Below, piece after piece: positions 2,456 to 64,000 of a DNA stretch of 64,000 nt. Source of the DNA: Eledone cirrhosa. Taxonomy: Eukaryota. How positions within the stretch are numbered: position 1 is the first letter of the stretch; each line of letters begins with the position of its first letter. The stretch is from NCBI GenBank assembly GCA_964016885.1, contig OZ024741.1, forward strand, positions 307,210,001 to 307,274,000, read 5' to 3'. The position numbers and the translations under genes were made by a program. A model generated the notes under the pieces. The model had not been told where the DNA came from. It did not search any database and saw only the letters and a program-made list of their open reading frames with translations.

Positions 2456-2522
2456 TTTTATTATGCGCATTTCAAAAACAAACATCATCATGCAATAATA
2501 TTTGTGTTTTCATCAGATAAAA
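2456..2522 (-). ncRNA. Type I hammerhead ribozyme in a PLE pLTR fragment (2422-2580), with an inverted partial copy at 2672-2719
   Basis: Minus strand: ttttat-CTGATGA-aaacacaaat...gtttgttttt-GAAA-tgcgca-TA|ataaaa. 2424-2470 recurs as a reverse complement at ~2672-2718. Confidence 0.8.
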
Positions 2523-2718
2523 CAGGAGAACATGATATGAAGGCTAAAAAACACTTGTGGATAGTGCAGTTATAAATCTACACATATATATATATATACA
2601 TATATATATATATGTATATATATATGTATATATATATATATATGTATATACATATATTTATATATATATATATGCGCATAATAAAATACATGGAACTCCT
2701 TTAACCATCTTTTGATCT

Positions 2719-2784
<66 letters not shown>

Positions 2785-2785
<1 letters not shown>

Positions 2786-3042
2786 GGAAGGTATACGTTG
2801 CTGATGATAGCTAATAAGCTTGAAACTAGTACAGCGTTCCTTTGTCAGTGTTGAACAAACGAGCAACGATGGTTGCTAGACACTACGGCTTAATACGGAA
2901 TGTTTGTTTACAAACACACCGAGCATTATGATAAATGTTCGGTGAATCCATACGTACATATATATATATGTCTGTATGTATGTATATATATATACATACT
3001 ACTGTGCGTCTGTATACATATATGTATGTACGTGTACATACT
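2785..3042 (+). mobile_element. Partial monomer of the 472-nt hammerhead repeat family (HHR at 2795-2837)
   Basis: acgttg-CTGATGA-t-agct-aata-agct-t-GAAA-ctag-TA|cagcgt. Downstream sequence is a diverged match to 26864-27145. Confidence 0.85.
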
Positions 3043-3075
3043 TATATACATACATATATATATATATATACATAG

Positions 3076-3152
<77 letters not shown>

Positions 3153-3186
3153 GATATAGATATATACGTATATATATATACACACA

Positions 3187-3220
<34 letters not shown>

Positions 3221-3229
3221 CATAGATAG

Positions 3230-3260
<31 letters not shown>

Positions 3261-3315
3261 CATAGATATATATATAGATATATACATATATATATATATA
3301 TATATACATAGATAG

Positions 3316-4563
3316 ATAGGAACCAGTAAGACCCCGACAGCTGAGCTCAAGCCGTTTCGACGGCCAATTCTGGACTAAATGAAAATTTATCCTTAGTCCT
3401 TCTACCCCAGCTCTTCTCCTTTGTCGGCGTCTTTTCTCGCCCACCCGAGGCTGCCCTTTGGCCCCATGTAGCCTTAGTACCCCCACCACCCCCTCCCCTA
3501 GTCTATGATAGATTTGGCGGACTTCGCCCTTTATAGCAGTTGGCTTAGACCCCGGATACTTGCCCCCTTTTTCCGACCGCTCCCACTATTCTCTGTGCCC
3601 TCTATATTTCTTAGTGGCACTTATGCCTTATTTTTTGTTTCAGTATTTCTTGCTTCGCTTTTCTTCTGGGCGGGGTGGATTCTGAATTTATTTCTCCGTA
3701 TTCTACCTTTATTTCGTACGAACTTTCATGTAGCTTGTTTTAGATCTTTTAGAGTTAGCAATAGTATATATTTTTCTCGGGACTCAGAATTATTATCTCG
3801 TACGGGTTCACTTTGCTGCACTGGGTCGTTGCTGGCCCGGAATGGAAACCTTTATTGTTTATTTCGTGGTAGTCTCTTTAGTATTTTGGCCCCTTTTGTT
3901 GACCCGTCACCGTATCATTTACGTACTTATACCTCTTAAAAGGGTCCTTGCCTATTCCGTCCCACCTAGTTCTTTTACTTATTTCGTTATTTCTTTATTT
4001 ATTTATTTCTTTACTTCTTTCTTTCTTTCTTTATTTTATTCTAGCCTAACAATAGCCTGAGACCTAGGTCGTAGAATTTAATTTACTTTACTTTTTTCTT
4101 TACACTTATTTGCTTTTCTTCACTCTCAGTATTTTTTCTTTCCTATATATTTCTACCCCCCATTGTTCTACCTACCGTTCCGACTTCCTCCCCCTCCCCT
4201 GTATCTTCTTTGACCTCATGCCCAGCTGTAGCTGGCACTACCAACGCTTGATTGGGTCTACTCCACCCCCTCCCCTCTTTCTCCTATTGGCAGGTTTAGC
4301 CACCATCTCCCCTACTAATTTGCAACCACAGAATTACTACTGATTTTTGACAATCACTTTGACCATATATGGAATTACCCCTTGAGAAGATCGGCTATTT
4401 AAATACCAGGATAAATTTTCATTTAGTCCAGAATTAGCCGTCGAAACGGCTTGAGCTCAGCTGTCGGGGTCTTACTGGTTCCTATTACCCACTCTACTAC
4501 CTCAAGTATTGAGTACTTTGGTGCGTTATGGTCCACCTGGTTCCTTACCACATTTCCTTCGTT
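3316..4563 (+). mobile_element. Non-coding PLE-type element with a 78-bp inverted 5' segment and a variant hammerhead
   Basis: 3316-3393 is the reverse complement of 4408-4485 (1 mismatch). Both ends abut (TA)n. Pyrimidine-rich body with no credible ORF. Confidence 0.7.
4377..4470 (+). ncRNA. Hammerhead ribozyme, U3/A8 core variant
   Basis: acccc-TTGAGAA-ga(t)cggcta...tagccgtc-GAAA-cggcttgagctcagctg-TC|ggggt. Confidence 0.75.
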
Positions 4564-4592
4564 ACATAGATATATATATATACATAGATATA

Positions 4593-4748
<156 letters not shown>

Positions 4749-4749
4749 C

Positions 4750-4806
<57 letters not shown>

Positions 4807-4865
4807 CATACATATATATATATACATATATATATATATACATACATATATATATATATACATAC

Positions 4866-4898
<33 letters not shown>

Positions 4899-4916
4899 AA
4901 TATATATTTATACATA

Positions 4917-4966
<50 letters not shown>

Positions 4967-5018
4967 CATACATATATATATATATATATACATACATATA
5001 TATATATACATATATATA

Positions 5019-5050
<32 letters not shown>

Positions 5051-5157
5051 CATATATATATATGTATATATACATATATATATACATATATATATATGTA
5101 TATATATATGTATATATATATATGTATATACATATATATATATATATATATATACAT

Positions 5158-6075
5158 ATACTACTAATAATGAGTTCAAAACTCAGGCAGTCCTTTACAA
5201 TGAAATAGCTCAAAGAAAGAAGTATTTCTGAGCCGTGTAATACAAGTTAATATAAATTAATATATTTGATAAACACAAATACCAACATATCTGTGTTTGT
5301 ATTGTAAATGACAAATTTAAATATAATATTTAAATTTGTCCAAGCACCACGGCCATTTGCCAATATGCTTTGTTTTTATTGATTTATTATTTTAAATCGA
5401 GACAGGCAAACTGTATTATTATAATTAGTATTTTTTTCAATTTAGCTAACTTAGTTATTTACAACACAAACACAGATAAGTTGGTATTTGTGTTTATCAA
5501 ATATATTAATTTATATTAACTTGTATTACACGGCTCAGAAATACTTCTTTCTTTGAGCTATTTCATTGTAAAAGATTACCTGAGTTTTGAACTCATTATT
5601 AATAGTATCACTGCTCCTTATTGTTGAGCTAACTTTAGCCCCATATAACCGGCTGTTATTTCTAGCAGCACGAGTATGCGGCAGCTAGACACTGGATAAC
5701 CATGTGTGAAAAAACATGTGCGTTAAACAGTCTTTTTAAATATTTTGAAGTGAAACATAACAATTTTTCTAGTGCTTGCTGAGGAGATCTAAATGCGTAT
5801 TCTTTCACTTTTTCATTTTTCGAAAGTTATTTGGATTTTAAGGTTTAAACCTGTCTACGGAACAGGTTTGATTTTGAAATTTAAATTTATCCAAGCACCA
5901 CGGCCATTTGCCAATATGCTTTGTTTTTATTGATTTATTATTTTAAATCGAGACAGGCAAACTGTATTATTATAATTAGTATTTTTCAATCTAGCTAACT
6001 TAGTCATTTACAATACAAACTCAGATATGTTGGTATTTGTGTTTATCAAATATATTAATTTATATTAACTTGTAT
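5158..6075 (+). mobile_element. Retrozyme-like non-coding element: 551-nt monomer, partial direct repeat and inverted 5' segment
   Basis: Direct repeat 5331-5526 vs ~5882-6075. Inverted segment 5158-5312 vs 5454-5608. 15-bp fold-back at 5310-5340. Confidence 0.8.
5772..5898 (+). ncRNA. Type I hammerhead ribozyme with long stem II region
   Basis: gtgcttg-CTGAGGA-ga...tt-GAAA-tttaaattta-TC|caagcac. Perfect 7-bp stem I; the base of stem II is weak. Confidence 0.7.
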
Positions 6076-6079
6076 ATAC

Positions 6080-6112
<33 letters not shown>

Positions 6113-6129
6113 CATATATATATATACAG

Positions 6130-6176
<47 letters not shown>

Positions 6177-6177
6177 C

Positions 6178-6210
<33 letters not shown>

Positions 6211-6227
6211 CATATATATATACACAC

Positions 6228-6258
<31 letters not shown>

Positions 6259-6285
6259 TATATATATATACATATATATATATAT

Positions 6286-6320
<35 letters not shown>

Positions 6321-6321
6321 T

Positions 6322-8502
6322 TTACGTCCGCTTTTCCCTGCTTGCAAGGGTGGGACGGGTCTTATTCAGCACAGCATCTCTCCACTCGTCACGGTCCCTC
6401 GTCATCTCCACCGTGAGCTTCAATGATCTGAGGTCTGTTCTCACCACCTCCGCCCATGTTTTTCGTGGTCTACCTCTACCACGTCTTCCTTCAACTGGCA
6501 ATTCCTGGCACTTCTTCACCCAACGGTCATCCTCCATTCGCATCACATGTCCATACCACCTCAGTCTCCTCTCCCGTACACTACATTCTATCCGTCTCAG
6601 ACACAGTTTCTCTCTCCACACATTTAGGCTGGGTCGTTCACGCACATTTACACTGCACATCCAATGGGGCATGCTTGCCTCATTTCTCTCCAGCCGTCGC
6701 ATATCCTCTGCAGTTGCTGCCCATGTCTCACTACCATGCAGCATCGCGCTCCTCACACAGGCATCATACAACCGGCCTTTCGTACGCAGGGAGAAACCCT
6801 TCTTCGTCAACAGAGGAAGCAGCTCCCTAAACTTCTTCCAACCCGTCCTTATTCTAGATACTATGCCCTCGGAACACCCTCCTCCCATGTTAATCTGATC
6901 TCCTAGGTACCGGAAGCTATCCATCACTTCTATAGCGCCCTCCTGCATTTGAAAAATGTGTCTATCTATGCGACTTCTACTGTCTAATTTCCCTGTACAT
7001 CTACTGCATACATATTTCTCCCTACCTGTTAGTTTGCCTGCTATCCCGCTACATCTCTTGTGTACCCAGGATCTGCATTGTGTGCATTTTATAGAATTTA
7101 TGCCAGTTCCTTTTCTGCATATCGAACATGGCCATTTCCCTGACGGAATCAGGGTTTTGTCCTCTTTTCTACTCATCAACACTTTTGTCTTAGCTAGATT
7201 CACTCTCAGTCCTCTTGCTTCCAACTGCTGTTTCCATAGCCAGAATTTATTCTCTAGCTCCTCTACTGATTCTGCTATAAGAACCAGATCGTCAGCATAG
7301 GGAAGATTCCATGGACAGCCAGTCTTAAACTCCTCTGTTATGGCTTGGAGGACTATAATGAACAAGAGCGGACTGAGGACCGAACTCTGATGTACTCCTA
7401 CTTGTATCTGGAATTCCTCACTAAACTCCATTCCTACCCTGATTTTACTGAGAGTACCTCTGTACAAAGTTTGCACTGTCCTCACAAGCCATTCCTCAAC
7501 ACCTAACTTCCTTAGGGACCACCAGATGACAGATCGGAGTACCCTATCAAAGGCCTTCTCTAGGTCAACAAAGGCTAGGTATAGTGGCTTATTCTTCTCT
7601 AAGAACCTCTCTTGCAATTGTCTCACCAAGAAGAGGGCATCTGTTGTACGTTTCCCAGGGACAAAACCAAAATGCATCTCATCTAGTTTGACCCTTTCTC
7701 TAATTAGTTGTGCTAAAATCCTTTCTGCCACTTTCATAACCTGATCTATCAGTTTTATACCCCTATAATTGCTCCTCTCCAAAGCATCCCCTTTACCTTT
7801 GTAGCAATTTATGAGAATACTGCTGCACCAGTCTTTGGGTATGCCACCACCAAATATAGCCTGATTGATGATGCGTGCAACCAGTTTAGTGCCTACGTCC
7901 CCTGATGCCTTCAGCATCTCAGCAACTATTCCCGATAGACCGGCAGCCTTACCATTTTTCATTTCCCTAATCGCCTCTTGGACCCTATATTCGTCAATCT
8001 CAATAGCTGGTCCCTCTGTCTGATCTACCAAGGGTAATTTCTCTCTCTCCCATTTGTTCTCCACATTCAACAGTCTCTCATAATGACATTTCCAGGCCTC
8101 CTTTTTCTGATCATTCGTGACACTAAGTACACCGGCATCATCCCGGACACATTTATCTCCAACAACATCCTGATTTGCATTGACACACAGCCTTGCAATG
8201 TGGAACATCGCACGCCTCTGATCTTCCCGTCGCAGAACATTGGCAAACCTCCTACTCTCTGCCTCCCTGCGTGCTAAGTACACCTGACGTGTAGCTTCTC
8301 TCTTAGTGGCTGTATATTCTTCCCTACTCCCACCTTTTTTCCAAGCCTTCCATGCTAGTCTTTTGTCTCTAATAGGCTTATCTACTGTGCTGTTCCGCCA
8401 CCAGGTCACTCTCTGTCTGGTTGGAGCTCTGCTCCAGCCACAAGTTTCATCAGTAGCCTGCAGCAAGTTGTCACGTAAAAAATTCCAGTTATTATCTGTC
8501 AT
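6322..8502 (-). CDS. RTE reverse transcriptase with a PHD-like zinc finger in the C-terminal region
   Basis: [44 protein letters not shown]; CSIC..C..C..WVHKRC..CSRC; [17 protein letters not shown]. Confidence 0.93.
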
Positions 8503-9388
8503 ACGTCTCTAAATCGTCTTCTTTTTCATCATATACATCTTGAAGAGCTTTCCTAAATTTGTATTTTAGTGAAAGGTCTTTTAGCTTCCAGACCTTTCTT
8601 CTCCACACCTTCCTATATGTCTCATTCCATCTCTTGCTTACTGAGATATCACTAACAACTAACCTATGCTGTGGGGTACATTCTTCCCCAGGGTATGCCT
8701 TGGTATTAGACACTATCTGCCTGTCCCGCTGCCTAAATAGCAAGAAGTCAATCTGGCTTATGTGCTCACCAGATTTGTAGGTTATTAGGTGATTGGCAGG
8801 TTTCTGGAAGTTTGTGTTGCAAATAGTCAATGTACCTGCATCACAAAATTCAAGAAGTCTCACTCCTTCTTCATTTCTTGAACCGTAACCGTGCCCACCA
8901 TGTACCCCAGTGTAACCATCCTGGAGCTGTCCAACATAACCATTGAAGTCTCCTGCTAGCATAACGATGTCTCCGTCCTCTGTCATTGCGGTTGTTTGCA
9001 AAAGTTGCTCATAAAAGCAGTCTTTCTCATCTTTGCCTAGGCCTGCTTGGGGAGCATAGGCCGAGATGATTGTCAGTAGTCTCCTACCTACAACTAATCT
9101 AAGCTTAATTATTCGATTATTAACTCGAACTACCTCTATTGTCTTATTGATCCATTTCTCAGCCAGGAAAATGCCTACTCCCCCTAACCCATCATCCTTA
9201 ACTACCCAGAATAGCTTATAGCTAAGACGTTTGCCTATGACTAGTCTCGCAGAGGCACCTCTCCATCTCACCTCTTGCACGCAGCACACATCCACCTGCC
9301 TTCTCTCCAGCATCTCCGCTATTTCAGCAGATCTACCTCTGAGAGTGCCAACATTAAGTGTTGCAACTCTGAGATGCGACGTCTTCAT
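8492..9388 (-). CDS. Apurinic-like endonuclease domain of the RTE ORF (frameshifted from RT at ~8500)
   Basis: Motifs ATLNVGTL, CCVQEVRW, SAYAPQ, GDFNG, QIDFLL and QHRLVV. Confidence 0.92.
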   Translation of the reverse strand: MKTSHLRVATLNVGTLRGRSAEIAEMLERRQVDVCCVQEVRWRGASARLVIGKRLSYKLFWVVKDDGLGGVGIFLAEKWINKTIEVVRVNNRIIKLRLVVGRRLLTIISAYAPQAGLGKDEKDCFYEQLLQTTAMTEDGDIVMLAGDFNGYVGQLQDGYTGVHGGHGYGSRNEEGVRLLEFCDAGTLTICNTNFQKPANHLITYKSGEHISQIDFLLFRQRDRQIVSNTKAYPGEECTPQHRLVVSDISVSKRWNETYRKVWRRKVWKLKDLSLKYKFRKALQDVYDEKEDDLETYDR

Positions 9389-9609
9389 ATTTTGTTGTTG
9401 TTCCTATTTTTTGCTGTGCTGATAAGCGTTTTCGCATTGATACACTGGTTGGATGCCCTTCCTAACACCAGCGCCACTTTACAGCATGGACTGGGTGCTT
9501 TTATTTGTGCCACCAGCACTAGAGAGGATGTCTTACTAGACTCAAGGGCCCTCTCTACCCCTCCATTATATACATATATATATATATACATATATATATA
9601 TACATATAC

Positions 9610-10156: not shown

Positions 10157-11570
10157 TTAATTGTACGTTGTGATGTTGCTGTTCCACTCATATTTTCTAT
10201 TTAATTTTGGTTTTAATTCTTTTATGCTTACTGCCTCTGTAATTTGCCTAAACATTGCGTCTTTTCTGTGTGTGGATTCTATTTTTATTTCTATGCTCTC
10301 TAATCTACCCCTGTGTTCTATCTTAGCACGTTGGTAGAGCACAGATGATTCTTTATTATCTTGGAGGTCTCGCCAGTGTTCATTTATTCGTTCCCCTATA
10401 CTACGAGCTGTCTCACCTATGTACACTATATTTTTGTTTCTACATTGTCCTTCAGTACATCTTATGCTATACACTACATTTCTAGTTTTACAGTTAATAT
10501 GGGGGCTTATTTTACAGGTTATACATTTCTTATCTATACATGAGGGTCTTTGGAACGGGTATGTCTTGCTAATAAGTGTTTTTACGGAGGTACCAGGTCT
10601 TTCTACTATCGTAATATTGAGATTATGTTTATTTAGGGCCCTTCTAAATTTGTAGGCTAGTTCGCCTCTAGGGGTTGTATTGATGAACATTACACTCTGG
10701 TATTTATTGCTATCATACCATGAGTTTATTCTGTTGGCCTTGTTCCTAGTTCTTTCTATTCTATTCCAAAATTTGCTCCTATACAAGGGGCATGTCCCAT
10801 TTATGTCATTATTTACCATTTTTTCCCATTTGGTTCTGGCTCCTTTATACACTCTGATTCTATCTCTCTGATTGTAGCCAGAGAACTGCATACGGTGGAT
10901 GAAGTGTTGTATGTGTCTCTCTAGTTCTTCGGGGTTGCACATGCGGGACACATTTCTCATCACCCGTACCAAATCCGCAATCAGTATGTTGATTTTGGTA
11001 TGGTCCGAAATGGCCGAGTTTCGGTGGATCAGATGTTTGGAAGTCATGGGTTTGGCATAATGGGAATGGGGGATTTGTTTTTGGTTGTTAATGGTATCTA
11101 ACCAGAGCTCTGTGTCTAGTACAGGTAATCGATGGTTGGGGTGTCTACTTGGGTAGTCTATAGTAACTCTAATGCTCTGGTGGATGGAGTTTGCTATTTG
11201 CTGGATGCTTTCCATTGTGTTTTTCTCTAGTTCCTGACTGTTCTTTAGTGGGGGTGTCTTAACTACGATGTTTATATCATCTACGTAGCGGGAGTACATT
11301 ATCAGGGTTAAGCTGTCTTCTAATTGTTCATTAAGTTTTCGTTTAAGTCTACTGTCCCACCATACCATGAATAAGTTAGCTATGTCGCCTGCAATGCTAA
11401 TACCAATGGCTGCTCCTTCCTCTTGGGCATATGTTTTACCATTAAATTTGAACATATGTTCCTTAAGGGTTAATTTTATGCTGGCCCCTACCGCATGTGC
11501 AATCATTTTCTTCAGTTCATCGTGGTTTTCGGGTGTCCGTATGGCTCTGGTCCACCCGTTCCATCTATCT
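10157..11570 (-). CDS. PLE reverse transcriptase plus GIY-YIG endonuclease (partial; the annotated start lies in microsatellite)
   Basis: [82 protein letters not shown]. Confidence 0.92.
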
Positions 11571-11658
11571 GTATATATATATACATTTATCTGTATATAT
11601 ATATACATCTATCTGTATATATATATACATTTACATATATATATACATATACATTTAC

Positions 11659-26908: not shown

Positions 26909-27335
26909 CCTGTGTCAGTGTTGAACAAAAAGGTGACGTGGTTGCCTTAACACCGTATGGCATAAATTCAGGCTGTTCAGTTTGTTTACAAACGAACAAA
27001 GCGACGTTACAATAAGCGCCGCTAAACTGATACGTGCATATATGTATGTGTACCTGTATACATATGTATGTATATATGTATATATATATATATATGTGCA
27101 TGCTACTGTACGTCTGTATACATATATGTATGTACGTATACATGCATACTTACATTTAAGTAAGTGCCATACTAAGAGTGAGAAATGAAATTTCGTTTTC
27201 ATTTTGTTTCAATTTATCGTTTTCGGTATGCCTGACCGATTTAACTCACTCAATATGCAAATTAGGCTGATCAGCCGTTAATTTTCATAAGGAAAGTATA
27301 TACTTTCGAACGTTCAACTATCTGACAGATGGGTA

Positions 27336-27380
27336 AACGGTGCTGATGATAGCTAGCAAGCTTGAAACTAGTACATCGTT
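27336..27380 (+). ncRNA. Minimal type I hammerhead ribozyme (next monomer, +472)
   Basis: Same fold, stem II loop agca. Confidence 0.88.
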
Positions 27381-27679
27381 CCTGTGTCAGTGTTGAACAA
27401 AAAGGTGACGTGGTTGCCTTAACACCGTATGGCATAAATTCAGGCTGTTCAGTTTGTTTACAAACGAACAAAGCGACGTTATAATAAGCGCCGCTAAACT
27501 GATACGTGCATATATGTATGTGTACCTGTATGCATATGTATGTATATATGTATATATATATATATATGTGCATGCTACTGTACGTCTGTATACATATATG
27601 TATGTACGTATACATGCATACTTACATATATATATATATATACATATATATACATATACATATATATACATATACATAT

Positions 27680-29584: not shown

Positions 29585-30022
29585 GAATAGAATGAAACGA
29601 AATTTCATTTCTCACTTTTAGTACGGCACTTACTTAAATGTAAGTATGTATGTATACGTACATACATATATGTATACAGACGTACAGTAGCATGTATATA
29701 TATACATATCATTTTCATAAGGAAAGTATATACTTTCGGACGTTGAATCATCTGTCAGAAAGGTATACGGTGCTGACGATAGCTAATAAGCTTGAAACTA
29801 GTACATCGTTCCTGTGTCAGTGTTGAACAAAAAGGTGACGTGGTTGCCTAACACTGTACGGCGTAATTCAGGCTGTTTGTTTGTTTACAAACGAACAAAC
29901 CGAGCATTATAATAAATGTTCGGTAAACTGATACGTGCATATATATATGTGTGCCTGTATGTATATATATACATGCTACTGCACGTATGTATACATATAT
30001 GTATGTACGTATACATACATAC
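29585..30022 (+). mobile_element. Copy of the 472-nt hammerhead family with inverted 5' segment (HHR 29767-29809)
   Basis: 29585-~29705 is antisense and ~29710-30022 is sense. acggtg-CTGACGA-t-agct-aata-agct-t-GAAA-ctag-TA|catcgt. Confidence 0.85.
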
Positions 30023-30228
30023 TTATATATATATAAATATATATATATACATATATATATATACATACATATATATACATATATATATATACATAAATAT
30101 ATATACATATATATATACATATATATACATATATACATATATATATATACATATATACATATATATATATACATATATATATACATATATATATATATAT
30201 ACATATATATATACATACATATATATAC

Positions 30229-30261
<33 letters not shown>

Positions 30262-30786
30262 CATACACATATATATACATTACATATATATACATATATA
30301 TATATACATATATATATATATACCTATATATGCATACATATATACATATATATGTATACATATATATATACATATATATATATATGTACATACATATATA
30401 TACATTCAAATATATATATACATATATATATATATACATATATATATACATACATATATATACATATATATATACATATATACATATATATATACATACA
30501 TATATATACATATATATATATACATATATATACATATATATATATACATATATATATATATACATACATATATATACATATATATATATACATATATATT
30601 TATACATATATATATATATATACATATATATACATATATATATACATATATATATACATATATACATATATATACATATATATACATATATATATATACA
30701 TATATATATAGATATATATATACATATATATAGATATATATACATATATATATATACATATATATATACAAAATATATATATATAC

Positions 30787-30821
<35 letters not shown>

Positions 30822-30834
30822 CATATATATATAA

Positions 30835-30867
<33 letters not shown>

Positions 30868-30930
30868 AACATATATATATAGATACATATATATATACAT
30901 ACATATATATATACATATATATATATACAC

Positions 30931-30975
<45 letters not shown>

Positions 30976-31020
30976 TAAACAAATAATGAATAAACAATTC
31001 CTTATATTAAACAAAAAAAG

Positions 31021-31175
31021 TTCATTATTTAACGATCGTTTCTAGGATATATATGTGTTAGAATTGGTATGCATATTCAACAGATCTATGTACAAAATTA
31101 TACAAAATTATACAAATTATCAAGATTAAATATACATACCAAATACATATATACGCCGTCTTCAGAAATAATGAA
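31021..31175 (-). ncRNA. Hammerhead ribozyme with ~115-nt stem II (left arm)
   Basis: ttcattattt-CTGAAGA-...-GAAA-cgatcg-TT|aaataatgaa. Perfect 10-bp stem I. Confidence 0.85.
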
Positions 31176-31996
31176 GTATATTTATTGATAATAACAACAA
31201 TTCAAAATTTCAGTTCAAAATTGACCAATGAAAACACAAAGGGTTAAATGCAGTTCGGTGTGTGTATATACATGTAAAACCCTTACACATATTTTACAAA
31301 AATGTATGTATAATTTGTATACGCATACTAAAAGGATGGATGCAAATACAAAATTTCAAGGTTAATGTCTCTGTAAGCTTACAATGCGCAGATAAGATGC
31401 GCATTGATACTTATGAAGTCAAGTATATAAATATATTTTTACATACTCACACATATCAGTACAATCACACATACACGCGCGTATATGCATAAATATACAC
31501 ATAACCACGAACATACAAACACACACACACCCCCACTCACATTTATATATGTGGATATAAAATCATAAGCACATGGATATTAATTCACTCACATAAAACA
31601 CTGGCACACACATTTCTAGATCAAGATACAGAAATTAGGTGGGAGGGGGGGGGAGGGGTCAGTATTCAACTGTCTGAGACGACTGCCTAATATAAATGTA
31701 TCTATAAATTAAGAAAAATAAAAAAATAAAACAATAAAATATAATAAATATAATATAATATACATACACATACAGATATATACACATACATACATGTACA
31801 CACACATAGAAATATTTACGCATACACACATACGCACATACATATACAGTCATACACACACATACACCTACACGAACATACACATACACATATATAAAGA
31901 TATATATATATACACACACACACACACGCAACACATACACACATACACATATATATAAAAAAAATAAATAATAAAGATATATACATATATATATAT

Positions 31997-32039
<43 letters not shown>

Positions 32040-32427
32040 CACATACACCTAAATATATATACACATACATACACACATACATAGACATACATGTACATAC
32101 ATATACGTACATCGATATACATACATATATATATATATATATACACACACATAGACATATAGATACATACACACACAACTTACATACACACATATATATA
32201 TATATGTATATTCATACATAGAATTAGATATATAATCATACATACATATGCACTTACTTATACTCATATATACAAATACCTACGCATCCATATAAGCGTA
32301 TATACATAAAAAACCACTACAACCTCACCTAACTCAGACATACAAATAAAAATAATAATAAAAAGGCATATGTATATACATACACACACGCATTAATAGA
32401 GATATATATATATATACACACATACAT

Positions 32428-32468
<41 letters not shown>

Positions 32469-32501
32469 TATATATATATATACACACACATACACTCATA
32501 C

Positions 32502-32532
<31 letters not shown>

Positions 32533-32873
32533 GATATCTACACACTCATACCACCATAAATACACATACAAACACCCACATATACATATATATACACACA
32601 CGTATATATATACATATATATATACACACACATAAAAAACAGACATGCACATATATATATATTTTTTTTACACTTATATATACACATATTATATACACAT
32701 ACACAATCTCACTTATACACACATACATATAAGTTATATTATAATAATAAAGAATAATATATATATATACATATATATATATACATACATACATACATAT
32801 ACATACATACATATAAACATATACATACATAAATACACACATACGAATATAGACATATATACACACATAGACA

Positions 32874-32932
<59 letters not shown>

Positions 32933-34063
32933 ATATACACAGACACATATACACACTCACATATATATATATGTGTGTGTGCGTGCACACACACATATAT
33001 ACACACACACACACATATACACATAAACACATACATATGCATACATGCACACACACGCACATATATCACATAGATACGAAGATAAACATATAAATAGAGA
33101 GACATACATATATATACACAACACACATACACACACAAACATACACACGCATATACATATACATATATATATACATATATATATTCCTATATATACATGC
33201 ATACACATACATACACATATATACACATACATACACATATACGTACACACATTCACATACACATACATATATAAATGCATATATACACATATATACATAC
33301 ATATACACACTCATATATACACACGCAATCTTACATTCATATTTGCATGCGCATATATGTATTTTTATATTTAGATATAAATACCCAAACCTATATAGAT
33401 ACCTACCTACATATATATTCATACATAGACGCTTACAAATACAGATGATAATAGTATGGGGGAAAGGGGGGGTTTGGAGAAGGGGATCAAAGTAAATATA
33501 TGTTTCAAGAAACATAAAATATTTTCCGTATCTTTATCCAATGTATGTTCTTACATATTTTCAGTGTTAGGAAATACAGCAAACAAGAACTAAGGCAAAA
33601 TCTATGCATCTCAAAATAAATAAGTATACCATTAATCATATGTTAACTAAACCAAAGATAGTCAACATATTGATTTCTAAGGTGTAAATTAGTTAGGTTT
33701 ATAATATTTGAAGCAGAATTTTGAAGTTAAACAGTAGTAGATTATTAATTACAGTATAACTAAATTAAAGTTAATAACGTTATGGTATCAATATTAGGAA
33801 ATGAATTTAGTAATAGGGAAAAAAAAAAACCCAAATAAAAATAAAATAAAGTATTACATCGGTAGTAGAATATAAATTATATGTTAACTAAATTAAAAAT
33901 TATATATTTATTTCAATAGTATATGTTAATTAGGTATACAATACATAAAGCAGATATTGTATTTCATCAATAGCATAATATAATTATATGCAAATAGAAA
34001 TCAAAATTAATACGCATACATATACATATACATACACATACATCTATACATATACATACACAC

Positions 34064-34102
<39 letters not shown>

Positions 34103-34625
34103 TACATACATACACATATACATACACACACACACATACACATACACATATACATATACATATTTTTTTCAAAAAATTGCATAGAATATATTAACTAGGT
34201 ATATATCCAAAACACATCCCATTCTATGATTACATGACATTCTGCAATTCGTCTGTATAAGGATACTAATTTTAAGCAAATTAAAATTAAAATTTTTAGG
34301 TTGATTAAAACTAAAACCAAATAATAAATATATTTCTAAAATGTATATTAATTAGGTCTATAATACTAAAAATTATTTCTCTGTCATTGGATACACGATA
34401 TTATTTTGTTATATTTTATCTGTAAAAGAATTATAATAAAAGGTTTAAATAAATTAAAATTAATCTATAAATTAAATTACTAAGTATATATTAGTAATAT
34501 TTAAAGGTTTTTCACAATTTATGATTACATAATATTTTATATTCTCATCTGTAATAAAATATTAATTAAATTAAAATTATAGGTTAACTAACATTTAAAT
34601 TAAATTAATTTCTAAAATAATGTTA

Positions 34626-36371
34626 TTAATTAGGTTTATAATATTTAAATGTTTTTTTTAGTTTATGATTACACGATATAATTAATTCCTGTCGTTTATT
34701 TAATAAGATATCCTTAGACTTCATTATTTCAAATAGTTCTTGGGAACATAATCTACATTCATTTCTATTATTTTGATAAGGGGTGGCTCTTTTGAGCACA
34801 CTCCAGGTCAAATCATATTTTATATTCTTATTTTTATAACTATTGATTTTTTCTGCTAGAGATGTTGTATTAGCCAGTGCGGCATTTTTAAAACTATGCT
34901 TGTGGGTATTAAACCTTGTCTTAAAATTGTTAGAGGTAGCTCCTATATATGAGCAAATAGAATCTTTAGTTTTAACATTACATTTATAGACTATGTTGTT
35001 AACAAGACAATTCCCTTTTAATGGGCAGTTTGCTTTGTTTCTACAGTTACATCCTTTCGTTAATTCTGTATTTGAGGAGATATTATGGTTAATTTGATGT
35101 ACTGGTGGTATACTTATGGTTTTCTTACATTTATATGCATTATATGCACTTATATTTTGTTTTATGTTATTTGTTGTAGAGTATGAGAATTTAACTGTAG
35201 ACCTATTTAAGATTTGATGGTATTTGTGGTTTGGCGGGAAGTTTTTCTCAAGGATATAAAAAAATTTTTTAGCAATATTATCCTTAACTTGTAAATTAAA
35301 AGGAGCATTATACCAAGTAACCCGTCTATTACGGTTTCTATGTTGTTTATTATTTTTATTATTTTTATAGGTTGTATCGTGATTTTTACTAGGAGGATTA
35401 ATGTTAATGATCTCACCACAACTATTTTTAGTTATATTTGTAGATTTAGGTGTTTTATCCTTTTTATTAGGAGTTTTATTATTAATATTTATTATAGTTG
35501 TATGATGAGTAGTTTTTTGAGAGTTACTATACTTTATATTAGAAGATTTAGTATTTTGGGGTATAGTGTGGGTGGCATTTAGGTGTGTACTTTTCATTTG
35601 GTGTTTGTTGGTAATATTATGTTGTATGCTTTCAGTATTCTTAGTAGAAGGTATATACTCTAATCTATTTTTGTGGCCACTTCTATCTAGAGCTTCGTTA
35701 TAGAAGGTCGCATTTTTATCAAATACATCTTGGTTAGAAGAAAGGTTAGAAATTCTAAGTGATATATTATATGCAAGGTTTTTAAGGATAGATTTAGGGT
35801 GATTAGATTGTGAGTGTATGTAATGTAAGTTTTGGTTAGGTTTATGGTAAGGTTGGTAGATACCCGTAGCTAAATCTAAAGTTATATCTAGGAAATTTAC
35901 TACTTTACTTGTTTTTTCAAAAGTAATATTAAGATTATAATAGTCTTTAAGGAAAGTTCGAATATGTTTTTTGTTTTTTTCGATTTCTGAAAGGCTAAGG
36001 TTGTTAGAAAGAAGAAGACAGTCATCACGATATAAACCACCTTTGAGGTGGGGAAAAGAGGCATTTATGTTGAAAAGGAGAAAGAGGCCCACAAGATCAG
36101 TAATTTGGGCGGAATCGCTTGAACCCATAGTAATATCAAAAAGATTACTGTATGTGTTTCTGGTCCAGTATTCATTCTGAAATTCAATAAGTGTTAGTCT
36201 AGCATGTGTAATAATGTTAATGTCATCCAAAGTTAAGTTAGATCTATTTTTAGCAAATATCAATGCTTTGTTCAGGAGTATAGGTGATATAGAAGAATAG
36301 TAATTATCTATATCAAATTGTAGGAAAGAAGCAGAAGATTTACACCTAATATTTTTAAACCAGTTAATTAC
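34626..36371 (-). CDS. Naiad-like RT plus GIY-YIG, open for 582 codons, 5'-truncated
   Basis: VINWFKNI..FLQFDIDNYYSSI (in frame, upstream of the track start), FDITMGSSDSAQITDLVGLFLL, GLYRDDCL, VNFLDITLDL, SNHP, CNCRNKANCPLKGNCL..IVYKC..YIGAT..FKTRFNTH, CRLC..E..LLNKR.E..CNH. Confidence 0.93.
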   Translation of the reverse strand, partial: VINWFKNIRCKSSASFLQFDIDNYYSSISPILLNKALIFAKNRSNLTLDDINIITHARLTLIEFQNEYWTRNTYSNLFDITMGSSDSAQITDLVGLFLLFNINASFPHLKGGLYRDDCLLLSNNLSLSEIEKNKKHIRTFLKDYYNLNITFEKTSKVVNFLDITLDLATGIYQPYHKPNQNLHYIHSQSNHPKSILKNLAYNISLRISNLSSNQDVFDKNATFYNEALDRSGHKNRLEYIPSTKNTESIQHNITNKHQMKSTHLNATHTIPQNTKSSNIKYSNSQKTTHHTTIININNKTPNKKDKTPKSTNITKNSCGEIININPPSKNHDTTYKNNKNNKQHRNRNRRVTWYNAPFNLQVKDNIAKKFFYILEKNFPPNHKYHQILNRSTVKFSYSTTNNIKQNISAYNAYKCKKTISIPPVHQINHNISSNTELTKGCNCRNKANCPLKGNCLVNNIVYKCNVKTKDSICSYIGATSNNFKTRFNTHKHSFKNAALANTTSLAEKINSYKNKNIKYDLTWSVLKRATPYQNNRNECRLCSQELFEIMKSKDILLNKRQELIISCNHKLKKTFKYYKPN

Positions 36372-36747
36372 CTTATTTTTATTATAATTCTTTTATTATA
36401 ATTCTTATTTTTATTATAATTCTTTTACAGATAAAATATAACAAAATAATATCGTGTATCCAATGACAGAGAAATAATTTTTAGTATTATAGACCTAATT
36501 AATATACATTTTAGAAATATATTTATTATTTGGTTTTAGTTTTAATCAACCTAAAAATTTTAATTTTAATTTGCTTAAAATTAGTATCCTTATACAGACG
36601 AATTGCAGAATGTCATGTAATCATAGAATGGGATGTGTTTTGGATATATACCTAGTTAATATATTCTATGCAATTTTTTGAAAAAAATATGTATATGTAT
36701 ATGTGTATGTGTATGTGTGTGTGTGTATGTATATGTGTATGTATGTA

Positions 36748-36786
<39 letters not shown>

Positions 36787-37917
36787 GTGTGTATGTATAT
36801 GTATAGATGTATGTGTATGTATATGTATATGTATGCGTATTAATTTTGATTTCTATTTGCATATAATTATATTATGCTATTGATGAAATACAATATCTGC
36901 TTTATGTATTGTATACCTAATTAACATATACTATTGAAATAAATATATAATTTTTAATTTAGTTAACATATAATTTATATTCTACTACCGATGTAATACT
37001 TTATTTTATTTTTATTTGGGTTTTTTTTTTTCCCTATTACTAAATTCATTTCCTAATATTGATACCATAACGTTATTAACTTTAATTTAGTTATACTGTA
37101 ATTAATAATCTACTACTGTTTAACTTCAAAATTCTGCTTCAAATATTATAAACCTAACTAATTTACACCTTAGAAATCAATATGTTGACTATCTTTGGTT
37201 TAGTTAACATATGATTAATGGTATACTTATTTATTTTGAGATGCATAGATTTTGCCTTAGTTCTTGTTTGCTGTATTTCCTAACACTGAAAATATGTAAG
37301 AACATACATTGGATAAAGATACGGAAAATATTTTATGTTTCTTGAAACATATATTTACTTTGATCCCCTTCTCCAAACCCCCCCTTTCCCCCATACTATT
37401 ATCATCTGTATTTGTAAGCGTCTATGTATGAATATATATGTAGGTAGGTATCTATATAGGTTTGGGTATTTATATCTAAATATAAAAATACATATATGCG
37501 CATGCAAATATGAATGTAAGATTGCGTGTGTATATATGAGTGTGTATATGTATGTATATATGTGTATATATGCATTTATATATGTATGTGTATGTGAATG
37601 TGTGTACGTATATGTGTATGTATGTGTATATATGTGTATGTATGTGTATGCATGTATATATAGGAATATATATATGTATATATATATGTATATGTATATG
37701 CGTGTGTATGTTTGTGTGTGTATGTGTGTTGTGTATATATATGTATGTCTCTCTATTTATATGTTTATCTTCGTATCTATGTGATATATGTGCGTGTGTG
37801 TGCATGTATGCATATGTATGTGTTTATGTGTATATGTGTGTGTGTGTGTATATATGTGTGTGTGCACGCACACACACATATATATATATGTGAGTGTGTA
37901 TATGTGTCTGTGTATAT

Positions 37918-37976
<59 letters not shown>

Positions 37977-38331
37977 TGTCTATGTGTGTATATATGTCTA
38001 TATTCGTATGTGTGTATTTATGTATGTATATGTTTATATGTATGTATGTATATGTATGTATGTATGTATATATATATATGTATGTATATATATGTATATA
38101 TATATATTATTCTTTATTATTATAATATAACTTATATGTATGTGTGTATAAGTGAGATTGTGTATGTGTATATAATATGTGTATATATAAGTGTAAAAAA
38201 AATATATATATATGTGCATGTCTGTTTTTTATGTGTGTGTATATATATATGTATATATATACGTGTGTGTATATATATGTATATGTGGGTGTTTGTATGT
38301 GTATTTATGGTGGTATGAGTGTGTAGATATC

Positions 38332-38371
<40 letters not shown>

Positions 38372-38399
38372 AGTGTATGTGTGTGTATATATATATATA

Positions 38400-38434
<35 letters not shown>

Positions 38435-38826
38435 GTGTATGTATGTGTGTATATATATATATATCTCTATTAATGCGTGTGTGTATGTATATACATATGC
38501 CTTTTTATTATTATTTTTATTTGTATGTCTGAGTTAGGTGAGGTTGTAGTGGTTTTTTATGTATATACGCATATATGGATGCGTATGTATTTGTATATAT
38601 GAGTATAAGTAAGTGCATATGTATGTATGATTATATATCTAATTCTATGTATGAATATACATATATATATATATGTGTGTATGTAAGTTGTGTGTGTATG
38701 TATCTATATGTCTATGTGTGTGTATATATATATATATATATGTATGTATATCGATGTACGTATATGTATGTACATGTATGTCTATGTATGTGTGTATGTA
38801 TGTGTATATATATTTAGGTGTATGTG

Positions 38827-38869
<43 letters not shown>

Positions 38870-39690
38870 ATATATATATATGTATATATCTTTATTATTT
38901 ATTTTTTTTATATATATGTGTATGTGTGTATGTGTTGCGTGTGTGTGTGTGTGTATATATATATATCTTTATATATGTGTATGTGTATGTTCGTGTAGGT
39001 GTATGTGTGTGTATGACTGTATATGTATGTGCGTATGTGTGTATGCGTAAATATTTCTATGTGTGTGTACATGTATGTATGTGTATATATCTGTATGTGT
39101 ATGTATATTATATTATATTTATTATATTTTATTGTTTTATTTTTTTATTTTTCTTAATTTATAGATACATTTATATTAGGCAGTCGTCTCAGACAGTTGA
39201 ATACTGACCCCTCCCCCCCCCTCCCACCTAATTTCTGTATCTTGATCTAGAAATGTGTGTGCCAGTGTTTTATGTGAGTGAATTAATATCCATGTGCTTA
39301 TGATTTTATATCCACATATATAAATGTGAGTGGGGGTGTGTGTGTGTTTGTATGTTCGTGGTTATGTGTATATTTATGCATATACGCGCGTGTATGTGTG
39401 ATTGTACTGATATGTGTGAGTATGTAAAAATATATTTATATACTTGACTTCATAAGTATCAATGCGCATCTTATCTGCGCATTGTAAGCTTACAGAGACA
39501 TTAACCTTGAAATTTTGTATTTGCATCCATCCTTTTAGTATGCGTATACAAATTATACATACATTTTTGTAAAATATGTGTAAGGGTTTTACATGTATAT
39601 ACACACACCGAACTGCATTTAACCCTTTGTGTTTTCATTGGTCAATTTTGAACTGAAATTTTGAATTGTTGTTATTATCAATAAATATAC

Positions 39691-39845
39691 TTCATTATTT
39701 CTGAAGACGGCGTATATATGTGTTTGGTATGTATATTTAATCTTGATAATTTGTATAATTTTGTATAATTTTGTACATAGATCTGTTGAATATGCATACC
39801 AATTCTAACACATATATATCCTAGAAACGATCGTTAAATAATGAA
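39691..39845 (+). ncRNA. Hammerhead ribozyme with ~115-nt stem II (right arm)
   Basis: CTGAAGA 39701-39707 and GAAA 39824-39827. Stem II pairs tatatatgtgtt/aacacatatata and ggtatgtatattt/gaatatgcatacc. Confidence 0.85.
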
Positions 39846-40030
39846 CTTTTTTTGTTTAATATAAGGAATTGTTTATTCATTATTTGTTTAATATTTTATC
39901 TTGACTCTGTATACCGTTTATCTTTCACCGAAAGTGGTTTTTCATTACATCTCTTCTTTCCATGATATCCGGAATACATTGAGTTCTTCATACGGATTGG
40001 ACACTACCGTAAACTCTTGGTAGATTTATC

Positions 40031-40069
<39 letters not shown>

Positions 40070-61133: not shown

Positions 61134-64000
61134 CTATTGGAGGGCTGCCTTGTAAACCACATTTTTTGTAAATCTTCCGGGAGCGTAGTAAAAGAGACTT
61201 GCTGAGTTTCCAACTCTTGAACATCCCACATACAGTTGTTCGTGTGAAAAACATGGGGTACTGAGGTCTAGCCAACCACTTTTAGTGATTGCTCCTGGGA
61301 TTTGTTAATGGTCATTGCAAAACTTAATCGAATGGGGAATTGAACTCTTTTCATCGGAAAGACACAGTCAGTTGGAATAAGTGGAACTCGGGAAATAAAA
61401 ACAGAGTCACCAGCGCCTTTTCCAGTAATGATTGTAGCCTCGAGAACGTCTCCAACATTTGCGTTATAACCAAGCGTGTGCCATTGCAAAGCCGAGGAGG
61501 TTCCAAATTTCTTAAGAGTATGATGAGACATCCAAGTCTTAGGCAGAGTTTATGCGGTGGCATTCCCGATGGTTCTTGTGAGTTTAAAAACTCTGTTGAG
61601 TAAAACGTTACTTGCGTTGGATCCGTAATCGAATCAATCGAAGCATAACATCGCTCTTGGGAAGGAAGTTGATAAAGCAGACATGTGTTAATAGCTTGGA
61701 CGGTGGCATTCGTAGGGGCTAAGATAGCCCTTTCACACATCCATTGATGACTGACGTAATTTGTTGAGAGGTCGGGGAAACTTTTGTGCAAAGGTCCCCA
61801 GGGCTGGGGACGTAGTTGCCGATGGTACTTATGTCAACGAAACCGTTTACGTCGATTAGTAAGTTCCCATTACCAACATCCAATAACTTTGAAGCAAAAT
61901 AATTGTTACCGTCTTGTTGGTGGAGAATCGATCGCATGTTGATGGTTAACATTCTCGACTTGACGAAGCGCCAAAAATGAGAATGTTTAATGCAAGCGTC
62001 TATTTCATCACCTGGTTGACCTTTTGGGATGATGGGAAGAGTTTGACGAAAGTCCCCAGCAAGAAGCAGAACGACGCCACCGAAAGGTTTAGAGTTGGAG
62101 CGTAGGTCTTGTAGCGTTGCATTGATTGCATGAAGTGCATTCTTGTGGGACATTGTCGCCTCATCCCAGACAATCATTTTGCATTATCGAAAGACAGCAG
62201 CCTCATCAGAATTCTTCTTTACATTAGTGGTCGGATTTTCAACATGACCAATGTTAAGGGGAAGCTTAAATGTTGAATGGACTGTTCTGCCGCCGTCTAG
62301 CAGTGTTGCTGCTATTCCTGAAGATGCCATTGCAATGGCAATCTGTCCATGTTGGCGAACTTTGGCAAGAAGGAGGTTTAGTAGAAATGTCTTTCCTGTG
62401 CCACCTGGCGCATCAAGGAAGAGGATGCCGCCGTTTATGTCTTCAAGCATGGTCAAAACAAAAGAATTCAAAAGTTTTTCTCTTTTTTGAATGTAGGACA
62501 GAAGCCTGGCAGCATTGTAGTATGTCTCCCTTAGTACGTGGCGGTTACAAACAGCCTCATTTTCTCTTTTAGGGGATTCCATATAGTAGTTCTTCAAGGG
62601 ATGGCCGGTCATTTCCAAAAGTATATCTTCTAGAAATATGAGACCGCAATTGTACATTTCATGTGTAAACTGTAAATTCATGTCTGTGGACGCAAAGCAA
62701 GATTGCATTAGGATGTCCAAGCACATGCTGTCACGATATTTATCCCAGAAAGACTGTGGATTCCCAAGACTGCGGTATACCAGCATAACGGCGAAAAGCT
62801 TACGAAGAGCAATTGGTGACTGCAACATTGATGCTTCATGGAGGGCGTGGTCATAGTGGTCATCGTTGTCGAGAAGACCTAATTTGGAGCAGGCCTCTTT
62901 AAATGTTGACCAAATATGGCCATTGACGGTACGGAGGTCTTCAAATGAAGTCAGACCTTTGATAACGTGCAATAGAAGATGAAGGTGAAAACATTCTGAA
63001 TTGAGCGGGTGAACTGTGTACACTCTTGAGAGGGCATCAGACTCACGCATCAAAGCATCCCTTTGTGAAATGCGTCCTCGCTTTCTTCTTTGCCAACAGC
63101 AGGAAGATTTATTCCACGTGTAGAATGTAGGCAACTCTGCATAAAGAAGTGTTCTGGCAAAAGAGTCTGAAGTACAAAGTTCAAAGAACCCGGTAAGGGT
63201 CGTTCTTCGAGGTTGTCTTGCACAGTCAAGCATATTTTCGTGGTTAAAATACACCCGTTGACCATTCTCCAAATGAACGCTGAGATGAATAACTGCAGGT
63301 TCACGTTCATGGATCGGAAAACCGAATATGCGCCAAAATCCCTCGTTAGAAGAGATATAGCGTCCAGTTTGAAAACACGTGACTTCATCTGTGGCAGCAT
63401 CAGGGTTATCGCTTTTAGCCAACTCAATAACTGCTCGATCAGCTCCCTTATGGACATACTTGCAGATGTATTGGATTGCTTTGACGGAGTTGCAGAATTC
63501 AACGTTAATATGGGCTGAAAACATTTTACATAGCACCTTGTTATGTGGTACAACCCATCGGTTGTCAATAGTGAAATCTTGACCACCAAGCATTGTTATA
63601 TTTGCCATATGTCAACCCTCCTGCGGTGCTCGGCGACGGTATGAAGGGTAGCCATCATCACCAGTTTTGGTTTCATTGATGAGTTTACGTGGGTAACGCT
63701 TTGTACATCTCCTATTGTCCATACATGCAGATTTTGGATTTAGGTGGCCACACGGGCCATGTATCATATTGGCTTTTATGATTTGAAATAGCGAAGGGTC
63801 TTCTTGGGGATTTGGCAATTCAGCACTGATAATGGAATCAACATCAGTTGACATAAGTTTCTTTTGAAGCCAAAGGAGAATATGGGCATGTGGGAGTCCT
63901 CTCTTCTGCCATTCTACTGTGTACATGAAGCACCTTACTGGTCCAAAATGTTGTCCGTATTTTAAAACATACAACATTTTTATAAGCTTCATGTGAAACA
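61134..64000 (-). pseudogene. Helitron Rep (HUH) plus Pif1-like helicase, with several stops and frameshifts
   Basis: VEWQKRGLPHAHILLW, YICKYVHKG, DAPGGTGKT, IVWDEATM, GDFRQTLP, LAPTN, LCNGTRL, QFPIRLSFAMTINKSQ, then FSHEQLYVGCSRV..TKNVVYKAALQ* (stop 61136-61134). Confidence 0.93.

What the first reader, a model, noticed from the sequence alone, without database searches (positions are those of the whole stretch)
30967..40030. 3.5-kb inverted repeat enclosing an open Naiad RT-GIY-YIG frame
Seen: arms 30967-34441 and 36409-39899 differ only by a few substitutions and ~16 bp of microsatellite length. The 1.97-kb loop holds an uninterrupted 582-codon frame starting just before RT motif A. Each arm ends in an outward-facing HHR. 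Established: PLEs often carry an inverted 5' pLTR, usually much shorter. Inference: a young insertion of a family with a very long (~3.7 kb) 3' region. Read-through transcription would give kilobases of dsRNA, a potential ADAR or small-RNA substrate.
Basis: partly seen in the sequence, partly recalled or inferred. Interest (0 to 1): 0.7.

Follow-up and report, generated by a model that had tools for sequence, protein, structure and literature searches.

The report
Penelope retrotransposon copied from both ends
This 3.5-kb inverted repeat is one young insertion of a very abundant Hydra-type (not Naiad) Penelope retrotransposon, and about three in four of the family's sampled insertions have two back-to-back arms with one long and one short end, which likely means one RNA, possibly a circle, is copied from both sides of the cut DNA.

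Summary
The inverted repeat and the open frame are confirmed; the Naiad label is wrong. The protein has a C-terminal GIY-YIG domain and Hydra-clade motifs (RWR, DKT, CxCx5C, CxxC, CxH). The full unit is 6,469 bp with an 813-aa ORF, twice the usual Hydra size. The window holds two tail-out, 5'-truncated arms (unit 847-6332 and 2779-6469); neither contains the other, so a fold-back artefact cannot explain it. The genome has at least 4,137 long and 3,683 short ends. Of 100 consecutive long ends, 76 have an inverted partner: 72 end at the short site, none at the long site. Arms of one insertion share one haplotype. Inverted copies with a one-sided tail are known PLE anatomy, and this scan already noted the long/short pairing on other DNA of this genome. 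The dsRNA/ADAR idea is untested.

The parts
30967..36373 (-). Short-ended arm: 5'-truncated copy, unit positions 847-6332, 3' end joined to (TA)n at 30967
   Evidence: mapping on a natural full unit
34626..36373 (-). 5'-truncated ORF (residues 233-813): RT motifs A-E, thumb, about 100-aa N/T/K/H-rich insert, CxCx5C linker, C-terminal GIY-YIG EN; no start codon
30967..34625 (-). 3' spacer of the short arm: degenerate AT-rich repeats (unit about 2580-3610), about 2.5 kb of microsatellite mosaic, then the terminal pLTR
36374..36408 (+). Head-to-head junction: templated stutter of the long arm's first 14-20 nt
   Evidence: sequence
36409..40036 (+). Long-ended arm: 5'-truncated copy, unit positions 2779-6469 (3' non-coding part only), 3' end joined to (TA)n
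39900..40036 (+). 137-nt tail between the two fixed end sites, present on the right arm only; predicted stem ACTC (39904) with GAGT (39981)
39691..39845 (+). Type I hammerhead-like motif: 10-bp stem I, CUGAAGA, about 120-nt stem II, GAAA, palindromic stem III, GUU triplet; activity not shown
   Evidence: compared with PMC8557442 file S2
31021..31175 (-). Same hammerhead-like motif in the left arm
39694..39694 (+). Unit position 6127 (31172 on the left arm): family-wide 5' stop point, likely the 5' end of one class of template RNA
29986..30966 (.). Left (TA)n-rich target tract
40037..40068 (.). Right (TA)n target tract

Best explanation
This is a young, 5'-truncated, two-armed insertion of a 6.5-kb Hydra-clade Penelope-like retrotransposon, likely made when both cut strands of a (TA)n target primed reverse transcription on the same RNA, one at a fixed site at unit 6332 and the other 137 nt further 3' at unit 6469. 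Shown: clade motifs, two fixed ends, one of each per insertion, shared haplotype of the two arms, arms not nested in each other. Inferred: the GIY-YIG domain nicks both strands; the two cDNAs copy overlapping template (the trailing one would displace the leading one, as no RNase H domain is seen), stop independently and are joined head to head by microhomology or filler; host repair fills the second strands. Inferred, weaker (about 0.5): kb-long arms like these come from an endless template, most simply a hammerhead-cut RNA circle, while the roughly 550-bp mini insertions come from linear RNA whose 5' end is at unit 6127. This copy cannot make protein by itself (no start, first 232 residues missing); its inverted repeat is a by-product of integration.
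For: Clade: RWR, DKT, CNCRNKANC, CRLC, CNH, C-terminal EN match the Hydra definition (PMC8557442 section 11). Two ends: 4,137 long and 3,683 short ends next to (TA)n, controls 0; 66 raw Illumina reads of run X18 carry (AT)n directly behind 39899. Pairing: 100 consecutive long ends on C1: 76 two-armed, partner at the short site in 72, slightly short of it in 2, unresolved in 2, at the long site in 0. Same template: 34 insertions with both HHR regions, 0.91 differences within against 8.57 between, 30 long-arm haplotypes, 0 of 2,000 permutations; ORF block 1.1 (n=8) against 19.7 (n=406) substitutions; the window's three left-arm alleles occur in 0 fetched copies against 48-54 for the right-arm alleles. 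Coupling: of 68 tight junctions both arms stay within the terminal pLTR in 40, both pass it in 25, mixed in 3 (p 3e-15). Not nested: the short arm reaches further 5' in 30 of 68, the long arm in 12. In vitro, a Poseidon PLE nicks and extends both strands and starts at two sites flanking the tail (PMC11167929).
Against: 24 of 100 long ends are single-armed or complex and 7 of 10 fetched unpaired short ends are single-armed, so two-sided priming is not obligatory. One short-short insertion was seen, with the inverted repeat running on at least 696 bp into its flanks (L096+L250). No contig or read of four runs bridges this window's own junction, so this particular copy rests on the assembly. PMC11167929 saw no difference in start site between strands, no need for HHR cleavage in vitro and no RNA-seq reads ending at the HHR site. 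Arms ending at the predicted HHR cut are rare (34 matches, about a third explained by stem I microhomology) and my control was confounded by a subfamily variant. The hammerhead has extra bases beside the core and its minimum-energy fold is not the catalytic one. Gene conversion between arms was not excluded directly.
Confidence: 0.75

Rival explanations
1. Two RNA molecules from the same source locus, held together (for example through the palindromic stem III), are each copied from one target strand; the complex is asymmetric, so one uses the short site and one the long site.
For: Would also give shared haplotypes and needs no strand displacement; stem III is a 10-nt palindrome; PLE hammerheads are proposed to work as dimers (PMC4209133 passages).
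Against: Must explain why both RNAs always have the same 5' end class (40+25 of 68) and why 3 insertions have both arms ending within 20 nt of each other away from 6127. If the two RNAs came from the two arms of a parent insertion, arm differences would build up over generations; they do not.
Confidence: 0.15
2. One cDNA folds back (self-priming) or is copied by DNA repair to make the second arm, or the arms are homogenised later by gene conversion; self-priming on an antisense template was proposed for Penelope palindromes.
For: Palindromic junctions exist (L079, L081, L107, L122); proposed in PMC3846280 (passages); L096 shows a fold-back that includes flank.
Against: In the window the short arm holds unit 847-2778, absent from the long arm, and the long arm holds the tail, absent from the short arm; the short arm reaches further in 30 of 68. 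A fold-back gives no reason to stop at 6332.
Confidence: 0.05
3. Assembly or chimeric-read artefact (fold-back of a long read).
For: This window's junction is not bridged in runs X1, X2, X3, X17.
Against: Different ends, different flanks, non-nested arms, three private substitutions; the same layout in 76 of 100 other loci; the short end is in raw short reads.
Confidence: 0.03
4. For the template only: long arms come from linear multi-unit or host read-through transcripts, or from the RT jumping from the RNA 5' end onto the 3' pLTR, with no circle.
For: Arrays with 2-3 junctions exist and could be transcribed; HHR cleavage is not shown and was dispensable in vitro (PMC11167929).
Against: A transcript starting at 6127 should leave second-pass stops there: 0 of 46. 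Linear read-through alone cannot lengthen arrays, yet arrays of near-identical units are young. A jump efficient enough to erase all second-pass stops sits badly with 1,730 arms that stop at 6127.
Confidence: 0.4

Closest known systems
Hydra clade of C-terminal EN+ Penelope-like elements (Craig et al. 2021, PMC8557442; sections 2, 3, 5-8, 11, 15 read, supplement parts 1-2 and passages of S4/S7)
   Same: RT then GIY-YIG; RWR (RWK), DKT, no IFD, CxCx5C, CxxC and CxH; type I HHR near the 3' end; (TA)n target; inverted 5'-truncated copy and one-sided tail (general PLE anatomy; Penelope-13_HM carries a 966-nt inverted copy).
   Different: Unit 6,469 bp against generally under 3 kb; 3.9-kb 3' region; tail 137 nt against 30-40; HHR stem II about 120 nt against 3-7 bp stems in file S2; about 100-aa low-complexity insert before the EN linker; thousands of young copies.
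Naiad clade (same paper)
   Same: (TA)n target, tandem and inverted insertions, tail, high copy number.
   Different: Naiads have an N-terminal EN, DKA, IFD, a CxC motif and no canonical HHR; none of these holds here.
Poseidon PAc of Anolis, in vitro TPRT (Frangieh et al. 2024, PMC11167929; main text and part of methods read)
   Same: Two RT start sites that delimit the tail; both target strands nicked and extended; AT-rich target.
   Different: No strand-to-site pairing was reported there; here the genome shows one long and one short end per insertion. Start sites there lie inside the ORF start, here 152-289 nt upstream of the ATG.
Adineta vaga Penelope families (Arkhipova et al. 2013, PMC3846280; passages read)
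   Same: Head-to-head inverted repeats, long spacer between ORF and 3' pLTR (0.9-1.5 kb in Pen1), Asn-rich inserts between RT and EN.
   Different: Penelope/Poseidon-type, few copies; the authors invoke self-priming on an antisense template.
Circular-RNA model for PLEs and non-LTR retrozymes (PMC4209133 and PMC7229834, passages read)
   Same: HHR in both repeats, head-to-tail multimers, opposite-strand HHR pairs 100-700 bp apart.
   Different: Proposed for PLEs, shown as RNA only for small non-coding retrozymes; here the hint is genomic and for a 6.5-kb coding unit.
L1 twin priming (recalled, no call)
   Same: Both target strands prime on one RNA and the cDNAs are joined head to head.
   Different: In L1 the second site is variable and the two cDNAs copy mostly separate parts; here it is fixed and the arms overlap by kilobases.

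Membership tests
Hydra-clade PLE | Single ORF with RT and C-terminal GIY-YIG EN | tested here: met
   813-aa ORF, FDIDNYY / ITMGS / YRDD then IVY..YIG, R, H, E, N; Pfam gave no RT or GIY-YIG hit
Hydra-clade PLE | RWK-type motif and DKG changed to DKT | tested here: met
   RRVRWRAY and SDKTGN; homologues RWK/RWR, DKT
Hydra-clade PLE | CxCx5C linker, CxxC and CxH around E and N | tested here: met
   CNCRNKANC, CRLC, CNH
Hydra-clade PLE | No CCHH zinc finger inside GIY-YIG | tested here: inconclusive
   Two cysteines lie between IVY and YIG here, 8 residues apart; the second is in none of 15 aligned homologues, so probably not the motif
Hydra-clade PLE | No insertion-in-fingers domain | tested here: met
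   Motif A to B spacing equals that of Hydra-1_Amil as read in the supplement, compared by eye
Hydra-clade PLE | Canonical type I HHR near the 3' end | tested here: inconclusive
   Core, stems I and III present; stem II very long with extra bases at the core; no Rfam match
Hydra-clade PLE | Insertion into (TA)n | tested here: met
   both ends in the window and thousands genome-wide
Hydra-clade PLE | Generally short (under 3 kb; typical, not diagnostic) | tested here: not met
   unit 6,469 bp
Hydra-clade PLE | Placement inside the Hydra clade in an RT tree | not testable with these tools
   named reference proteins were seen in the supplement only and were not available as stored sequences
Naiad | GIY-YIG EN N-terminal to RT | tested here: not met
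   EN is C-terminal; the full N-terminus has none
Naiad | DKA motif, IFD, CxC motif between EN and RT | tested here: not met
   DKT, no IFD, no such motif before the RT
Naiad | No canonical HHR | tested here: not met
   HHR-like motif with both core halves present

The most novel reading that the evidence does not exclude
An autonomous 6.5-kb Penelope-like element that integrates by programmed twin priming: two RNA hairpins fix one start site for each target strand on a single RNA, and a hammerhead-made RNA circle serves as rolling template. This one rule would explain the inverted arms, the one-sided tail and the partial tandems of PLEs, and it seeds this genome with about 3,000 self-complementary insertions.
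Probability: 0.4. Interest if true: 0.7.

Novelty: new variant of a known kind. Interest (0 to 1): 0.45.

Why it matters
How PLEs form tandem and inverted insertions with a one-sided tail is called open in PMC8557442 (section 15), and PMC11167929 found two start sites in vitro without linking them to the two strands. This family is young, numerous and polymorphic enough to count the products: one long and one short end per insertion, one haplotype per insertion, and no stop at the RNA 5' end on a second pass. That turns twin priming and the circular-template idea (proposed in PMC4209133) into direct tests with a named protein, two named start sites and a predicted ligation point. About three in four insertions are inverted repeats, so any that lie in transcribed regions would be dsRNA; Penelope is heavily A-to-I edited in a lizard (PMC5625713, passages). 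The locus itself is an ordinary member of the family.

Tried and rejected
Whole-window self-BLAST without masking timed out; repeated with masking. Pfam found no RT or GIY-YIG family. Rfam gave only microsatellite-driven miRNA and snoRNA matches below gathering score and no hammerhead. Sequencing runs: no RNA holder listed, which says nothing on expression. Reads and contigs of X1, X2, X3, X17 did not bridge the window's junction. Cap test: G before unit 6127 in 29 of the first 100 matches against 23 of 72 at other junctions (p 0.74); the control includes subfamily SNPs, so a capped start is neither shown nor excluded. HHR-cut test: 568 matches with a non-T before 6269 are mostly A and often in pairs about 290 bp apart, read as a GUA subfamily; 26 at the next position; 34 with two non-T; the control was swamped by a variant (169); 3 of 12 second-pass stops lie at about 6270-6275, suggestive only. 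Dimer model of residues 1-478: no answer, no support and no evidence against. Sequence look-up in earlier findings returned nothing. First pairing script failed on a bug and was redone; one search ended in an error after printing its results and the last step was redone. Rejected: Naiad; fold-back artefact; mini insertions as descendants of one master (junctions differ); inheritance of both arms from a two-armed parent (arm differences do not accumulate). Literature searches listed no paper that states one start site per strand on one RNA for PLEs; the library lacks most subscription journals. Supplements of the bioRxiv retrozyme preprint were not seen (abstract, introduction and part of methods read).
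Full report
Observation. The inverted repeat is real in the assembly: arms 30967-34441 and 36409-39899 differ by 3 substitutions and three microsatellite indels. The 1,967-bp loop holds an open frame on the minus strand; 582 codons of it come from the element. Both outer ends abut (TA)n. The right arm carries 137 more bases (39900-40036) that belong to the element.

The family. The loop sequence has 2,573 candidates in the 3.0-Gb genome, the 41 listed matches rounding to 100% identity. A tandem copy on C3 gave a natural unit of 6,469 bp with an 813-aa ORF at 153-2594. The protein has RWR, DKT, RT motifs, an insert of about 100 residues relative to most homologues, CNCRNKANC, a C-terminal GIY-YIG domain, CRLC and CNH; 118 relatives pass E 1e-20 at 31-48% identity. 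These are the Hydra diagnostics of PMC8557442. No tree with named references could be built.

Anatomy of this copy. On the unit, the window is a minus-strand arm 847-6332 and a plus-strand arm 2779-6469, joined head to head through a short stutter of the second arm's first bases. Each arm holds sequence that the other lacks, so neither is a copy of the other. The three left-arm alleles occur in none of the fetched copies: they are private changes, and the insertion is young. It lacks the first 232 residues and a start codon.

Two fixed ends, one of each. Exact patterns count 4,137 long ends, 3,683 short ends (1,957 with the window's own variant) and 304 tandem junctions. I fetched all of the first 100 listed long ends (C1, 0-99.7 Mb, extensions). 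76 have an adjacent inverted arm; its end is the short site in 72, a little short of it in 2 (L079, L081), beyond the fetched DNA in 2 (L121, L156) and the long site in none; 24 are single-armed or complex. From the other side, 33 of 44 exact short ends in that interval pair tail-out with a listed long end; of 10 others fetched, 1 pairs with a variant long end, 7 are single, 1 is nested and 1 unresolved. One short-short case has its inverted repeat running at least 696 bp into the flanks. The short end is in raw reads of run X18 (66 reads). This window's own junction was not bridged in four runs.

One template. In the 34 of 100 insertions where both arms cover the hammerhead region, arms differ by 0.91 on average within an insertion and 8.57 between insertions; 17 of 34 are identical against 14 of 1,122 cross pairs. 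Longer blocks agree. Of 68 insertions with a tight junction, both arms stay inside the terminal pLTR in 40, both pass it in 25, and 3 are mixed. Junctions show overlap in 20, blunt joins in 8 and filler in 40 of 68. This fits two target-primed events on one RNA. It agrees with PMC11167929, where a Poseidon protein nicked and extended both strands from two sites that delimit the tail, though no strand-to-site pairing was reported. Following a lead from earlier notes of this scan, each end lies 4-5 nt before an RCTC that can pair with a downstream GAGY: pair probability 0.85-0.96 after the short site, 0.4 after the long site. The second hairpin lies in the next unit, so long-site priming would need a tandem junction or a circle (inference).

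Two template classes. 1,730 arms begin at unit 6127 with a non-template base before it. I then fetched the most upstream junction of 59 arrays from the first 100 listed junctions, leaving out internal junctions, 11 fetched earlier and the last listed ones on C3: 46 run past 6127, 1 is a deletion variant, 12 stop earlier, 0 stop at 6124-6130 (p 5e-7). So 6127 is not a roadblock for the RT but likely the 5' end of one RNA class, and long arms come from a template without it. A hammerhead-cut circle, proposed for PLEs in PMC4209133, is the simplest reading; multimeric read-through or template jumping are not excluded. Tests for a cap and for hammerhead-cut ends were inconclusive.

dsRNA. Read-through of this locus would give a 3.5-kb duplex, but the element's own pLTRs point outward, the ORFs shown for the window are TE remnants with no evident host gene (output partly cut), and no RNA could be examined. 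By the sample, about 3,000 insertions are two-armed and about 30 of 100 span more than 1.5 kb (hand count). Penelope is heavily edited in a lizard (PMC5625713), so the idea is plausible and untested.

Verdict. Known architecture (inverted 5'-truncated copy, one-sided tail; PMC8557442, PMC3846280) in an unusually large, very active Hydra family. The value lies in the counts that tie the two start sites to the two strands and hint at an endless template. The scan had already noted the long/short pairing in this genome for other Hydra families and retrozymes; those notes are not independent support. New variant of a known kind; interest 0.45.

Noticed in passing
L096 + L250 (G000:C1, about 30.69-30.71 Mb): Short-short insertion whose inverted repeat continues at least 696 bp into both flanks; a fold-back that includes flank, or an assembly error. 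Beside it a long arm is fused to the 5' end of a different Hydra-type ORF.
   Followed up: partly
L023 (about 2093-2683) and L027/L028: A 500-590-bp insert in the spacer microsatellite at unit about 4440-4475: in 1 of 3 units of L023 but all 3 units of L027.
   Followed up: no
L205: Junction-bearing unit with an internal deletion of about 5858-6281 that removes the hammerhead and the 6127 site.
   Followed up: no
window 36374-36408; L085, L169, L243: Templated stutter repeats at the 5' ends of arms, as if the RT re-copied the last few bases several times (telomerase-like repeat addition).
   Followed up: partly
window 36373; L021: Two independent insertions are truncated at unit 847-848, at a small imperfect palindrome in the ORF.
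   Followed up: no
G000 C1, about 40 of the 100 sampled loci: Mini insertions of 80-830 bp made only of the two pLTR arms, many about 550 bp; they look like MITEs but have different junctions.
   Followed up: yes
window 81-1149 (+), 51217-51663 (-), 10160-11608 (-): Remnants of other Penelope-like elements: two Hydra-type and one other RT-GIY-YIG frame of 483 aa.
   Followed up: no
window 59650-63998 (-); 6325-9403 (-); 13040-14056 (+); 14574-16431 (+): Helitron-like rep/helicase pieces and LINE-type RT frames (labels from recalled motifs, not searched).
   Followed up: no
window 26441-27627: 472-bp tandem repeat, 2.5 copies, 96% alike, with a related inverted piece nearby; could be another PLE-mobilised repeat.
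   Followed up: no
subfamily matches: About 530 copies have GUA in place of GUU at the predicted hammerhead cut site.
   Followed up: partly
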